NCBI GenBank assembly: GCA_964404795.1
Contig: CAYOLI010000001.1
Coordinates: 17,059 to 81,058, forward strand
DNA length: 64,000 bases
Reading direction: 5' to 3'
Source: an uncultured Candidatus Saccharibacteria bacterium
GTDB taxonomy: Bacteria; Patescibacteriota; Saccharimonadia; Saccharimonadales; 2-12-FULL-41-12
Shown: in pieces, positions 17,503-19,086 of the stretch
Layout of the letters: each line of letters begins with the position of its first letter
How positions within the stretch are numbered: the stretch's first letter is position 1
Position numbers and translations under genes: made by a program
Notes under the pieces: generated by a model
What the model was told of the DNA's origin: nothing
Database searches by the model: none
What the model saw: the letters and a program-made list of their open reading frames with translations, nothing else

Positions 17503-18360
17503 TTACAGATTGAAAAACGTCTGAACGTACCAATTTATCATATTGGCACTAAATAGCTGTACCAAAACGGTTGCAACTAGCAAAAAGGGGCCAAAAGGAA
17601 TTCGAGTTGAAGGAGTTATTTTTTTACCAAGCATCATTGGCAGGGATACAATTGTCCCAAGAAGCGATGCAACAAAAAGCATAATGGCCGCGTTTAGAGG
17701 GCTAGCCAGTAGTAACCCCAACACAAAACCCAGCTTGACGTCGCCACCACCAATCCAACGCCCCTTAGAAACCTCAAAAAGAAGCCAAAACAAACCCCCA
17801 CCCACAATCGAGCCCAAAATAGCTTGCAAGATCACACGACTGCCTTGGTCTATGACAATACTTAGTACAAACAAGAGCGCAACTACTCCTAGGGTCAGCA
17901 CAACCTTATTCGGCAAAATCATCCAACGCAGGTCATAAACAACCAAAAACATGAACCCTACTAGCAGAACTAGCCACAGGCCGAAGTTAGCTACAGTTAC
18001 CAAGCTGTTAAGGTTGTTTGGCCAAAAAAGATAAGAAGCAACAAAGAGTATTGCAGTTATTAGTTCGATCAGTGGATATTGCCAGTGTATTGGCTTTTTG
18101 CAGTAACGACATTTGCCCTTTAATGCCAGCCAGCTGACAACGGGTAACAAATCTTTAGAGGCAAGCTGATGCTTGCAGTCCACACACACCGAGCGGCCCC
18201 TCACTATAGAATATTTTGCTTTGGCAATCTTGGTTTTAGCTGATGCTTGCATATGAAAACGCCAAACAAAGGCATTTACAAAACTACCAAAACAAAGACC
18301 TAGCAAAACCAAAAGTACTACTACCATTAGCATAACTATACCAGAGAACCCCCACAACAA
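17503..18360 (-). CDS. pilD: prepilin peptidase / N-methyltransferase (A24 family)
   Basis: CxxC...CxxC zinc motif (CVDCKHQL...CRYCKKPI), polytopic membrane, conserved Asp-containing loops. Confidence 0.85.
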   Translation of the reverse strand: MLWGFSGIVMLMVVVLLVLLGLCFGSFVNAFVWRFHMQASAKTKIAKAKYSIVRGRSVCVDCKHQLASKDLLPVVSWLALKGKCRYCKKPIHWQYPLIELITAILFVASYLFWPNNLNSLVTVANFGLWLVLLVGFMFLVVYDLRWMILPNKVVLTLGVVALLFVLSIVIDQGSRVILQAILGSIVGGGLFWLLFEVSKGRWIGGGDVKLGFVLGLLLASPLNAAIMLFVASLLGTIVSLPMMLGKKITPSTRIPFGPFLLVATVLVQLFSANMINWYVQTFFNL

Positions 18361-19086
18361 GGTTAAACCCTGCTACAGGGTTTAACCTTGTTGGTGCTAC
18401 TGGTTTGCTAGCTCGTGCTTTATGATATCAAGAGACTTCTTATTATCCTGATAGTCCGCTACGAATGTACTGTACTCTTTCCTGTCTGCAAAATTACCCA
18501 AAATATAATCGGGATGAACCCAATCATGTATAACAGTATTGTTGGCGTAATCGGGGTAACTGCTGTACCGCCAACTCTTATATTCTTTTGGGTTGAGATG
18601 TATATATCTTGTTATGTGCGCAAAGTAATCGTCATCTGTTATTAGTGATGCCTTGTAGCTACTTTCTAGCAATGTTCCCTTGCGTTTGTATTTTTTGTTG
18701 TAATACATGGTATAAGCCGTACCAACACCCTGCATAAGCTCAGAGATGGCTTTTGGATTATCTTTCTGGAATAAAAGCAAGTGATAATGATTTGGCATCC
18801 AACAAAACGCCAATACCTCGATCTCGTCACCTAGCCATTTGCATTCCCTCCCATACCTGTCTATTCCTGGCTTAGGACCGGCAGATCTAGCAAATAGCGA
18901 CGAAAAAAATTTATAGTCATCCTCATCCACAAAGATAGTTTTTTTGTCGACACCACGATTGTAAACATGATAATAGGCATCTGCTGAAAACTGACGAACC
19001 AAATTCTTGCCTGGCATAAAGTAATATTACCAATAGTATTATTGCTTTACAAGGTTAAACCCTGCTACAGGGTTTAACCTTGTTGG
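18358..19086. mobile_element. IS200-like / REP-associated tyrosine transposase unit bounded by identical 37-nt palindromic direct repeats
   Basis: caaggttaaaccctgctacagggtttaaccttgttgg occurs at 18358-18394 and 19050-19086; each contains a 12-bp perfect-stem palindrome ggttaaaccctg/cagggtttaacc; single HuH-Y1 gene between. Confidence 0.6.
18397..19017 (-). CDS. Y1 HuH transposase, IS200/RAYT family (PF01797-like)
   Basis: YHVYNRG (beta-strand 1), MPNHYHLLL (HuH), ITRYIHLNP (catalytic Tyr helix) align with E. coli RayT/IS200 TnpA motifs; 206 aa. Confidence 0.65.
   Translation of the reverse strand: MPGKNLVRQFSADAYYHVYNRGVDKKTIFVDEDDYKFFSSLFARSAGPKPGIDRYGRECKWLGDEIEVLAFCWMPNHYHLLLFQKDNPKAISELMQGVGTAYTMYYNKKYKRKGTLLESSYKASLITDDDYFAHITRYIHLNPKEYKSWRYSSYPDYANNTVIHDWVHPDYILGNFADRKEYSTFVADYQDNKKSLDIIKHELANQ

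What the first reader, a model, noticed from the sequence alone, without database searches (positions are those of the whole stretch)
18358..19086. IS200/RAYT-like HuH transposase inserted between pilD and pilA, bounded by identical 37-nt palindromic direct repeats
Seen in sequence: caaggttaaaccctgctacagggtttaaccttgttgg occurs identically at 18358-18394 and 19050-19086. Each copy holds a perfect 12-bp-stem hairpin (ggttaaaccctg/cagggtttaacc). The single gene between them encodes a 206-aa protein with the Y1 HuH transposase motifs (HYHLLL; RYIHLNP). Single-strand HuH transposases recognise exactly this kind of sub-terminal hairpin, and REP-associated tyrosine transposases (RAYTs) are flanked by REP palindromes. 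The element splits the pilus gene cluster but keeps every pil ORF intact. The pilA terminator lies just beyond the right repeat.
Basis: partly seen in the sequence, partly recalled or inferred. Interest (0 to 1): 0.65.

Follow-up and report, generated by a model that had tools for sequence, protein, structure and literature searches.

The report
Palindrome-flanked tyrosine nuclease gene in pilus operon
A single-copy gene for a hairpin-cutting (HUH/tyrosine) DNA enzyme, bracketed by two identical DNA palindromes, sits between the pilin and prepilin-peptidase genes of a Saccharibacteria-like genome; it is an old resident relative of the known REP-associated "domesticated transposases", not a recent jumping gene.

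Summary
The shared repeat is 38 nt (18357-18394; 19049-19086). The stems are 18 and 16 bp, not 12. These are the only perfect hairpins with stems of 11 bp or more in the 64 kb. The 206-aa protein is a Y1 HUH enzyme: Pfam PF01797 above cut-off, invariant HxH and Tyr, and a model closest to E. coli TnpAREP bound to a REP hairpin.

It is not an IS200. Its Y motif (YIHLNP) is the class-2, RAYT-like signature. It is single-copy, and it occupies the same pilA|pilD slot in three other genomes at 59-69% identity. Synonymous sites there are saturated, yet the palindromes are kept, with compensatory stem changes.

About 40 related pil loci are empty: pilA terminator, then the pilD -10 element, then pilD. 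So the cassette is an ancient insertion, bounded at or near the palindromes. Across Patescibacteria, 56 of 71 homologues carry matching palindromes about 30 nt before the start and about 5 nt after the stop (controls 11/380).

Best reading: a sedentary REPtron/TIRtron-type cassette. REP-like dispersal is minimal. No canonical GTAG foot was found. A functional link to pili is unproven.

The parts
19049..19086 (.). Upstream (right) palindrome. The 38-nt repeat copy contains a perfect 16-bp stem and 3-nt loop hairpin (19049-19083). On the gene strand it ends 31 nt before the Y1 start codon.
   Evidence: Conserved in orthologous loci L011-L013 with compensatory changes.
18397..19017 (-). Gene for a 206-aa Y1 HUH endonuclease or transposase-like protein. 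The HUH motif is H77-Y-H79, the catalytic Tyr is Y138 in RYIHLNP, and an SS motif lies at 152-153.
   Evidence: PF01797 36.4 bits against cut-off 23. Residues invariant in 25 homologues. AF2 pLDDT 91.6. Best structural match 4er8_A, TnpAREP with a REP hairpin. pN 0.19-0.27 while pS is saturated.
18355..18394 (.). Downstream (left) palindrome. It holds a perfect 18-bp stem and 3-nt loop hairpin (18355-18393), with the 38-nt repeat copy at 18357-18394. It starts 3 nt after the Y1 stop codon and ends 11 nt before the pilD extended -10 element.
19172..19195 (-). pilA intrinsic terminator hairpin. This is ancestral locus sequence marking the upstream limit of the inserted segment, not part of the cassette.
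   Evidence: An equivalent terminator directly precedes pilD in about 40 empty-site loci.
19087..19171 (-). 85-nt spacer between the pilA terminator and the upstream palindrome. On the gene strand it is extremely C-rich and G-poor (C38, G1, A26, T20). Role unknown; the composition resembles a Rho-utilisation site.
   Evidence: A similar CA-rich spacer occurs in L012, but the spacer is absent in L011.
18335..18343 (-). pilD extended -10 promoter-like element, TGGTATAGT. It lies 1 nt before the ATG at 18333 and 7 nt before the ATG at 18327, which suggests a leaderless pilD mRNA. It marks the downstream limit of the inserted segment.
   Evidence: Read from the sequence. The same TGnTAnnAT element sits just before the pilD start in most empty-site loci and in L011. 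The consensus scan does not list it as a two-hexamer promoter.
19024..19029 (-). Candidate -10 hexamer (TAATAT) for the Y1 gene, 6 nt before its ATG. A possible -35 (TTGTAA) overlaps the 3' arm of the upstream palindrome. Weak; read by eye only.
   Evidence: Read from the sequence. Falls below the threshold of the promoter scan. L011 has TAATACTAT at the same place.

Best explanation
This is a REPtron/TIRtron-type cassette: one gene for a class-2 Y1 HUH single-strand DNA endonuclease, bracketed by two copies of its own cognate palindrome.

Shown here:
- The protein keeps the HUH metal-binding motif and the catalytic tyrosine, and it is under purifying selection.
- The palindromes are kept self-complementary and nearly identical to each other within each genome. 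Between genomes the middle of the stem changes by compensatory substitutions.
- The same palindrome-gene-palindrome layout holds for most homologues across Patescibacteria, whatever the neighbouring genes are.
- In this lineage the cassette was inserted long ago between the pilA terminator and the pilD promoter. It has been inherited there since, and most related genomes have an empty site.

Inferred from E. coli TnpAREP, IS608 and ISDra2 biochemistry:
- When the DNA is single-stranded (replication, transcription), each palindrome folds into a hairpin.
- The enzyme binds the hairpin and can cleave and rejoin DNA next to it through a 5'-phosphotyrosine intermediate.
- That activity would keep the two copies matched, occasionally seed extra copies nearby, and permit seamless loss of the cassette.

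The cassette does not appear to transpose as a unit today. Its position in the pilus operon is most simply a tolerated intergenic site behind a strong terminator.
For: Protein:
- PF01797 above the gathering score.
- Y16, H17, H77, H79 and Y138 are invariant in 25 homologues of 44-70% identity.
- The profile hits ISDra2 TnpA with HUH and Tyr aligned.
- The AF2 model (pLDDT 91.6) best matches 4er8_A, TnpAREP bound to a REP hairpin, then ISDra2 and IS608 TnpA.
- The motifs NHYH, F[EQ], YIHLNP and SS match TnpAY1 class 2, subclass 2.1, in Quentin et al. 2018.

Palindromes tied to the gene:
- Orthologous loci L011, L012 and L013 have the pair in the same positions.
- Across the 8 copies, 97.7% of cells pair and 6 of 16 pairs change on both sides, with invariant CAAGG and CCCTG boxes.
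- The window and L011 stems are identical although pS is 0.88.
- 56 of 71 GTDB homologue loci share a 12-mer or longer between their flanks, against 11 of 380 shifted controls.
- The positions are stereotyped: median 29.5 nt before the start and 5 nt after the stop.
- Two paralogues in one MAG each have their own palindrome type (L024 and L037).
- The neighbours of homologues are diverse housekeeping genes.

Sedentary and single-copy:
- All 24 contigs encoding the identical protein, and all contigs with the identical PilD that reach far enough upstream, show the same arrangement.
- There is no second homologue in the window.
- The family is almost absent from viral contigs.

Insertion:
- About 40 of 57 related pil loci have a pilA-pilD gap of only 56-92 nt, containing the terminator and the -10 element.

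Low-level spread:
- Third cognate copies occur at L012 7513-7545 and L011 8854-8886.

The pattern of early acquisition, a fixed site and later losses parallels the E. coli REPtron (PMC3333891).
Against: - No biochemical activity was tested. Binding and cleavage of the palindromes by this protein are inferred.
- The canonical REP hallmark, a 5' GT[AG]G at the hairpin foot, is absent.
- High-copy genome-wide dispersion is not seen. The 64-kb window has no extra copy, and whole genomes could not be scanned.
- The protein fails the NCBIfam RAYT equivalog cut-off.
- The palindrome is almost perfectly symmetric, and loop orientation is not conserved: the two copies are direct in the window and L011 but inverted in L012. 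A symmetric double-stranded binding site would leave the same covariation signal.
- Quentin et al. report no REP-like flanks for subclass 2.1, so the subclass assignment by motifs may be imperfect.
Confidence: 0.62

Rival explanations
1. It is an autonomous IS200/IS605-like insertion sequence. The whole palindrome-gene-palindrome unit excises seamlessly as single-stranded DNA and reinserts. The pilA|pilD slot is a preferred target.
For: - Presence in the pilA|pilD slot is patchy on a PilC+PilT tree, interleaved with empty sites.
- A second, distinct Y1 clade (L109 and L130, 45-46% identity, with a different palindrome) occupies the same slot.
- A solo palindrome of that second type lies just after pilA in L012.
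- Homologues sit in many different contexts across Patescibacteria.
- Empty sites carry no scar, as expected for seamless Y1 excision.
Against: - The window holds a single copy, and all same-species contigs show one locus.
- The cassette is retained in the same slot across saturated synonymous divergence, with pN well below pS.
- The Y motif is Y---NP rather than the IS200 Y---Q. There is no tnpB. The two ends are identical perfect palindromes rather than distinct imperfect left and right hairpins.
- No excision junctions were found among population contigs.
- The trees are neighbour-joining without support values.
Confidence: 0.17
2. The palindromes act mainly at the RNA or transcription level, as 5' and 3' stem-loops that insulate, terminate or stabilise the Y1 transcript within the pil operon. 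Alternatively they act as an operator for autoregulation. The enzyme's DNA-cutting activity would be secondary or lost.
For: - The positions are stereotyped relative to the ORF: about 30 nt before the start and about 5 nt after, or overlapping, the stop, in 52 loci.
- The upstream palindrome may overlap a weak -35, and a -10-like element follows each palindrome.
- REPs are reported to affect termination and mRNA stability (PMC3733652).
Against: - No U-tract follows either hairpin, and the terminator scan does not call them. No Rfam family matches.
- Sequence, not only pairing, is conserved: the CAAGG and CCCTG boxes are invariant while synonymous sites are saturated.
- The catalytic HUH and Tyr are invariant across the family, which argues that the chemistry is still used.
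- Extra copies occur away from the gene.
Confidence: 0.13
3. The cassette is functionally recruited by the type IV pilus and competence system. For example, the enzyme might process incoming single-stranded DNA, or the hairpins and enzyme might tune the pilA/pilD expression ratio.
For: - The slot is occupied repeatedly within Saccharimonadales by two Y1 clades.
- Y1 homologues lie directly next to pilD in three distant Patescibacteria loci: L030, L042 and L070.
- In L012 pilD itself is bracketed by the palindromes.
- Saccharibacteria are naturally competent and use type IV pili (PMC10633639).
Against: - Most related pil loci, about 40 of 57, lack the cassette.
- Most homologues, roughly 95%, are not near pil genes, and their neighbours are diverse.
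- Ribonucleotide reductase is a neighbour as often as PilD.
Confidence: 0.06

Closest known systems
REPtron: tnpAREP/RAYT gene flanked by REP/BIME palindromes (E. coli yafM locus; Nunvar 2010; Ton-Hoang 2012, PMC3333891; Corneloup 2021, PMC8266576)
   Same: - A class-2 Y1 HUH enzyme with the Y---NP motif, whose model is closest in fold to 4ER8.
- A single-copy gene bracketed by cognate palindromes that co-evolve with it.
- A fixed chromosomal site, acquired early and lost in some lineages.
- The unit does not seem to move as a whole.
   Different: - No 5' GT[AG]G foot motif.
- The palindromes are perfect, 16-18 bp and almost fully symmetric.
- Copy number is minimal: 2 in 64 kb here and 3 in two orthologous loci, against hundreds in E. 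coli.
- The protein fails the NCBIfam RAYT equivalog cut-off (39 against 80 bits).
- The host is Patescibacteria.
TIRtron/TIRYT (Di Nocera et al. 2013, PMC3733652), which corresponds to TnpAY1 subclass 2.1 (Quentin et al. 2018, PMC6006769) and Bertels Group 1 RAYTs (PMC5581495)
   Same: - The core motifs match subclass 2.1: NH[YF]H, FQ/FE, Y[IV]HLNP and an SS tail motif.
- The gene is flanked by repeats unrelated to GTAG REPs, some of them wholly self-complementary.
- Repeat families are of low or moderate abundance (Group 1 flanking 16-mers average about 12 per replicon).
   Different: - No C-terminal HTH or DnaA_C-like domain. The tail is a single long helix, and the protein is 206 aa against a median of 238.
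- No GGGGWSAS motif.
- Quentin et al. found no REP-like structures next to subclass 2.1 genes. Here about 79% of homologues have them, at stereotyped distances.
IS200/IS605 insertion sequences (IS608, ISDra2)
   Same: - The HUH/Y1 fold.
- Hairpins at both ends of the gene.
- Seamless excision chemistry would explain the scar-free empty sites.
   Different: - The Y motif is Y---NP, not Y---Q.
- The protein is longer and has a tail.
- The two end palindromes are identical and perfect, rather than distinct imperfect left and right ends with guide sequences.
- No tnpB, and no multiple near-identical copies.

Membership tests
Y1 HUH endonuclease / transposase superfamily (PF01797, TnpAY1) | HUH metal-binding motif and a single catalytic tyrosine on the following helix | tested here: met
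   H77-Y-H79 and Y138 are invariant in 25 homologues. HUH and Tyr align with ISDra2 TnpA.
Y1 HUH endonuclease / transposase superfamily (PF01797, TnpAY1) | Profile score above the curated threshold, and the Y1 fold | tested here: met
   PF01797 scores 36.4 bits against 23. The Foldseek top hits are 4er8, 2xm3, 2vjv and 2a6m, with E-values from 3.6e-7 to 1e-5.
IS200/IS605 insertion sequence (TnpAY1 subclass 1.1) | Y motif Y-x-x-x-Q; a core-only protein of about 150 aa | tested here: not met
   The motif is RYIHLNP (Y---NP), and the protein is 206 aa with a 65-aa tail.
IS200/IS605 insertion sequence (TnpAY1 subclass 1.1) | Several near-identical copies per genome; often tnpB; distinct imperfect left and right subterminal hairpins | tested here: not met
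   There is one copy in 64 kb and one locus in all same-species contigs. No tnpB lies adjacent. The ends are identical perfect palindromes. A whole genome was not available.
REPtron / RAYT (TnpAREP) | Class-2 Y1 gene flanked by cognate palindromes that co-evolve with it | tested here: met
REPtron / RAYT (TnpAREP) | Conserved 5' GT[AG]G tetranucleotide at the hairpin foot | tested here: not met
   The flanks of both hairpins on both strands lack it. L011 and L013 have GTAG only as the 3' end of the stem.
REPtron / RAYT (TnpAREP) | Cognate palindrome dispersed at high copy number in intergenic regions | tested here: inconclusive
   The 64-kb window has no extra copy. Single extra copies occur in L011 and L012. 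Exact-match scans of the public collections found nothing. No complete genome could be scanned.
REPtron / RAYT (TnpAREP) | NCBIfam NF047646 REP_Tyr_transpos equivalog score | tested here: not met
   39.1 bits against a cut-off of 80.
REPtron / RAYT (TnpAREP) | Binds and cleaves the folded single-stranded palindrome | not testable with these tools
   This needs EMSA and cleavage assays.
TIRtron / TIRYT = TnpAY1 subclass 2.1 (Bertels Group 1) | Motif set NH[YF]H, FQ, Y[IV]HLNP and a proximal SS tail | tested here: met
   Alignment A1 shows NH[YF]H, LF[EQ], RYIHLNP and invariant S152-S153, compared with Table 1 of PMC6006769. This is a comparison by motifs, not a phylogenetic placement.
TIRtron / TIRYT = TnpAY1 subclass 2.1 (Bertels Group 1) | C-terminal HTH-like domain (Bac_DnaA_C, HTH_23 or HTH_28) | tested here: not met
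   No Pfam hit beyond residue 140 at E<=1. In the model the tail is two short helices and one long helix at 179-205.
TIRtron / TIRYT = TnpAY1 subclass 2.1 (Bertels Group 1) | Gene flanked by inverted repeats unrelated to GTAG REPs; GGGGWSAS motif in many | tested here: inconclusive
   The flanking self-complementary repeats are present. The GGGGWSAS motif is absent between 18250 and 19250.

The most novel reading that the evidence does not exclude
The cassette may not be a passive guest but a recruited part of the Saccharibacteria type IV pilus and competence locus. In this reading a domesticated hairpin-specific single-strand DNA nuclease and its two (or three) palindromes act on DNA taken up through the pilus, or set the pilA:pilD expression ratio. 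That would explain why two different Y1 clades and a solo palindrome all occupy the pilA|pilD slot, and why pilD itself is bracketed by the palindromes in one genome.
Probability: 0.06. Interest if true: 0.8.

Novelty: new member of a known kind. Interest (0 to 1): 0.4.

Why it matters
RAYT/REP systems are the textbook case of a domesticated bacterial transposase whose host function is still unknown. They have been studied almost only in Proteobacteria, where hundreds of REP copies obscure the minimal system.

Here tiny Patescibacteria genomes show what looks like the minimal form: one enzyme gene and just two cognate perfect palindromes at fixed distances from the ORF. The palindromes are conserved more strongly than synonymous sites, and this layout is the rule for the family across the phylum. 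That gives a clean substrate-enzyme pair for biochemistry.

It also extends palindrome association to a clade with subclass-2.1-like motifs, a subclass the literature reports as lacking such flanks. For annotation, it warns against calling these genes IS200 transposases or treating them as markers of recent mobility.

Tried and rejected
- Exact-pattern scans for the palindrome in genome contigs and metagenome contigs returned nothing. The organism is evidently not in those collections, so genome-wide dispersal stayed untested.
- phmmer against PDB sequences gave no hit. Only the profile and the fold search were informative.
- Same-species contigs carry no sequence variation in the gene, so they say nothing about selection. 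They also show no excision alleles. Apparent alternative contig starts are assembly breaks inside the palindromes.
- dN/dS could not be given as a ratio because dS is saturated.
- A general association of the family with type IV pilus genes was tested through the neighbours of 72 homologues and rejected.
- Phage carriage was rejected: 3 weak hits in the viral collection.
- Known RNA families were rejected: only one sub-threshold chance hit.
- A sigma-70 promoter for the Y1 gene overlapping the palindrome is only a by-eye candidate, below the scan threshold.
- The idea that the outward G-rich flanks (TGGGG(G)TT) extend the terminal inverted repeat was not upheld in L011.
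Full report
**Observation.** The two repeat copies are real and exact. The shared stretch is 38 nt, at 18357-18394 and 19049-19086. Each copy is a perfect palindrome with a 3-nt loop. The stems are 18 bp (18355-18393) and 16 bp (19049-19083), longer than the 12 bp reported. A 27-mer search finds only these two sites, against none in 100 shuffles. 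They fold strongly as single-stranded DNA, at -19.9 and -17 kcal/mol with z about -6.5. No other perfect hairpin with a stem of 11 bp or more exists in the 64 kb. Between them lies one ORF, 18397-19017 on the minus strand, encoding 206 aa with HYHLLL and RYIHLNP. Its neighbours are a pilin (N_methyl), a prepilin peptidase (A24_N_bact + Peptidase_A24) and, further up, pilC, pilT and pilB. All are intact and co-oriented.

**The protein.**
- It passes Pfam PF01797 Y1_Tnp at 36.4 bits against a cut-off of 23.
- It fails the NCBIfam RAYT equivalog at 39 bits against 80.
- A database search finds more than 1100 relatives, nearly all 200-210 aa.
- In an alignment of 25 relatives at 44-70% identity, Y16, H17, H77, H79 (the HUH motif), Y138 and S152-S153 are invariant.
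- A profile of that alignment hits ISDra2 TnpA with HUH and Tyr in register.
- An AlphaFold model (pLDDT 91.6) is closest to 4ER8, the E. coli REP-associated tyrosine transposase bound to a REP hairpin. ISDra2, IS608 and IS200 transposases follow.
- The motif set NHYH, F[EQ], YIHLNP and SS matches class 2, specifically subclass 2.1, of the TnpAY1 classification of Quentin et al. 2018. IS200 proper has Y---Q.
- Unlike typical subclass 2.1 proteins, it has no C-terminal HTH-like domain. The tail is mainly one long helix.

**Not a recent insertion.**
- The identical protein occurs on 24 read contigs, always between pilA and pilD.
- Every contig carrying the identical PilD that reaches far enough upstream shows the same arrangement.
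- Contigs that seem to start differently simply break inside the palindromes.
- Homologues of 69, 61 and 59% identity (L011, L012, L013) sit in the same slot.
- Between these genes the synonymous sites are saturated (pS 0.88-0.97), while pN is 0.19-0.27. The protein has therefore been under purifying selection for a long time.
- It is conserved as well as or better than PilD and PilA in the same loci.

**The palindromes belong to the gene.**
- All three orthologous loci carry the pair at the same positions.
- The window and L011 have identical stems despite saturated synonymous divergence.
- L012 and L013 keep the outer CAAGG/CCTTG and inner CCCTG/CAGGG boxes but replace the central TTAAA/TTTAA with AGACT/AGTCT.
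- Over the eight copies, 97.7% of cells pair and 6 of 16 pairs show changes on both sides. This is few independent events, and a symmetric duplex site would leave the same signal.
- Within each genome the two copies stay nearly identical. Their relative orientation, readable only from the loop, is not conserved: direct in the window and L011, inverted in L012.
- Each 15-nt arm (CAAGGTTAAACCCTG) is itself a near-palindrome with a conserved A·C mismatch.
- More distant relatives carry such short units as singlets, for example L046 AAAAGGTTAAACCTTTT and L051 ACAAGGAGACTCCCTGT.
- The long hairpin therefore looks like an inverted doublet of a short REP-like unit.

**A family rule.** Eighty homologue loci from species-representative genomes are overwhelmingly Saccharibacteria or other Patescibacteria MAGs. 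In 56 of 71 with complete flanks, the 200 nt before and after the gene share a 12-mer or longer, against 11 of 380 shifted controls. In 52 loci the shared element is a palindrome, at a median of 29.5 nt before the start codon and 5 nt after, or overlapping, the stop. The sequence differs by lineage but often follows a (C)AAGGT...ACCTT(G) or AGGGTC...GACCCT theme. Two paralogues in one MAG each have their own type (L024 and L037). Neighbouring genes are diverse housekeeping genes. The family is almost absent from viral contigs.

**Empty sites.** Eighty loci were fetched through PilC, at 62-75% identity. Of these, 57 contain both pilA and pilD. About 40 have a gap of only 56-92 nt, made up of the pilA stop, an intrinsic terminator, a TGnTAnnAT extended -10 element and the pilD start. 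None contains the palindrome. In the window the cassette lies exactly between those two landmarks: the terminator at 19172-19195 and TGGTATAGT at 18335-18343. In L011 only 7 nt separate the terminator from the first palindrome, and about 14 nt separate the second palindrome from the -10 element.

Empty loci such as L094 are as close to the window, by PilB, PilC and PilT identity, as the occupied L012 and L013. On a rough neighbour-joining tree, occupied and empty loci interleave. This parallels the E. coli REPtron history of early acquisition at one site followed by losses. A second Y1 clade (L109 and L130, 45-46% identity, palindrome TTAAGAGGTTSAACCTCTAA) occupies the same slot and does not group with the window clade. 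A solo palindrome of that type lies just after pilA in L012. The trees carry no support values, so the number of gains and losses remains open.

**Dispersal.** The window has no further copy of the hairpin or of its 15-nt unit. L012 has a third copy directly after pilD, and L011 has one about 6 kb away, before a XerC-like gene. A few other loci also show extra copies. This low abundance resembles Bertels' Group 1 (about 12 occurrences of flanking 16-mers) and Di Nocera's TIR families, not classical REPs. Whole-genome counts could not be obtained.

**Mechanism.**
- Shown: an intact, selected Y1 catalytic set, and cognate, self-complementary, concertedly evolving palindromes at both gene ends.
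- Shown: an ancient insertion and low-level spread of the palindrome.
- Inferred from TnpAREP, IS608 and ISDra2 work: the enzyme binds the folded single-stranded palindrome and cleaves and rejoins next to it. This would homogenise the copies, seed new ones and allow seamless loss.
- Unresolved: strand specificity, given the near-perfect symmetry and the absence of a GTAG-like guide.
- Unresolved: whether the hairpins also act in transcription. No U-tract follows them and no Rfam family matches.

**Verdict.** This is a REPtron/TIRtron-type cassette and a new member of a known kind, found in a phylum where such systems have not, in the literature I could search, been described. The IS200 label and the idea of a recent insertion are wrong. 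The RAYT-like reading is broadly right, but the canonical REP features (GTAG foot, high copy number) are missing. A functional tie to the pilus is possible but unsupported at family level.

Noticed in passing
window 19087-19171 (gene strand = minus): The 85-nt spacer between the pilA terminator and the upstream palindrome is extremely C-rich and G-poor on the transcribed strand (C38, G1, A26, T20). That composition resembles a Rho-utilisation site. L012 has a similar CA-rich spacer; L011 has none.
   Followed up: partly
window 18327-18343; L094-L173 pilA-pilD gaps: pilD is preceded by a conserved extended -10-like element (TGnTAnnAT) only about 7 nt before its start codon, directly behind the pilA terminator. 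This holds in about 40 related Saccharimonadales loci and suggests a leaderless pilD mRNA.
   Followed up: partly
L012 5768-5790: A solo palindrome, CTAAGAGGTTAAACCTCTAAAC, lies right after the pilA stop. It is of the type that flanks the other Y1 clade (L109, L130). The core pattern AGAGGTTNAACCTCT occurs nowhere else in 173 loci. It may be a footprint of an earlier occupant or a dispersed copy.
   Followed up: partly
L012 7513-7545; L011 8854-8886: These are third copies of the cognate hairpin. One lies directly after the pilD stop, so that pilD is also bracketed. The other lies just upstream of a XerC/XerD-like recombinase gene about 6 kb away.
   Followed up: partly
L111, L117, L143 (2-4 kb); L122, L125, L164, L169, L173 (0.7-1.1 kb), all between pilA and pilD: In other relatives the same pilA|pilD gap holds different insertions. 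These include extra pilin genes and large (600-1000 aa) signal-peptide proteins. The gap seems to be a general hot spot for insertions.
   Followed up: no
L130 8234-8919: Between the pilin gene and the Y1 cassette lie two small ORFs that look like an AbrB/MazE-type antitoxin and a PemK/MazF-type toxin. This is judged from their N-terminal sequences only.
   Followed up: no
L072 40-740 (Oscillatoria sp. HE19RPO): A tandem array of the palindrome AGAAACCGGGTTTCT, with an 83-nt period and about 9 copies, lies upstream of a distant Y1 homologue. Further copies lie downstream. This is a high-copy REP-like arrangement, unlike the Patescibacteria loci.
   Followed up: no
L008, L181, L182, L009 (contig starts): Metagenome contigs of this species repeatedly start inside one of the two palindromes. 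The repeats break short-read assemblies and could be mistaken for structural variants.
   Followed up: yes
L051 (labelled Candidatus Nanoarchaeia archaeon): A Y1 homologue with the palindrome ACAAGGAGACTCCCTGT, identical to the half-arm of the L012 hairpin, sits in a MAG labelled archaeal. This may be mis-binning or transfer between DPANN and CPR organisms.
   Followed up: no
window 12337-13263 (+): A XerC/XerD-type tyrosine recombinase gene (Phage_integrase domains in the orthologous loci) lies convergent to the end of the pilus and minor-pilin cluster. Its position is conserved in L001, L011 and L012.
   Followed up: no
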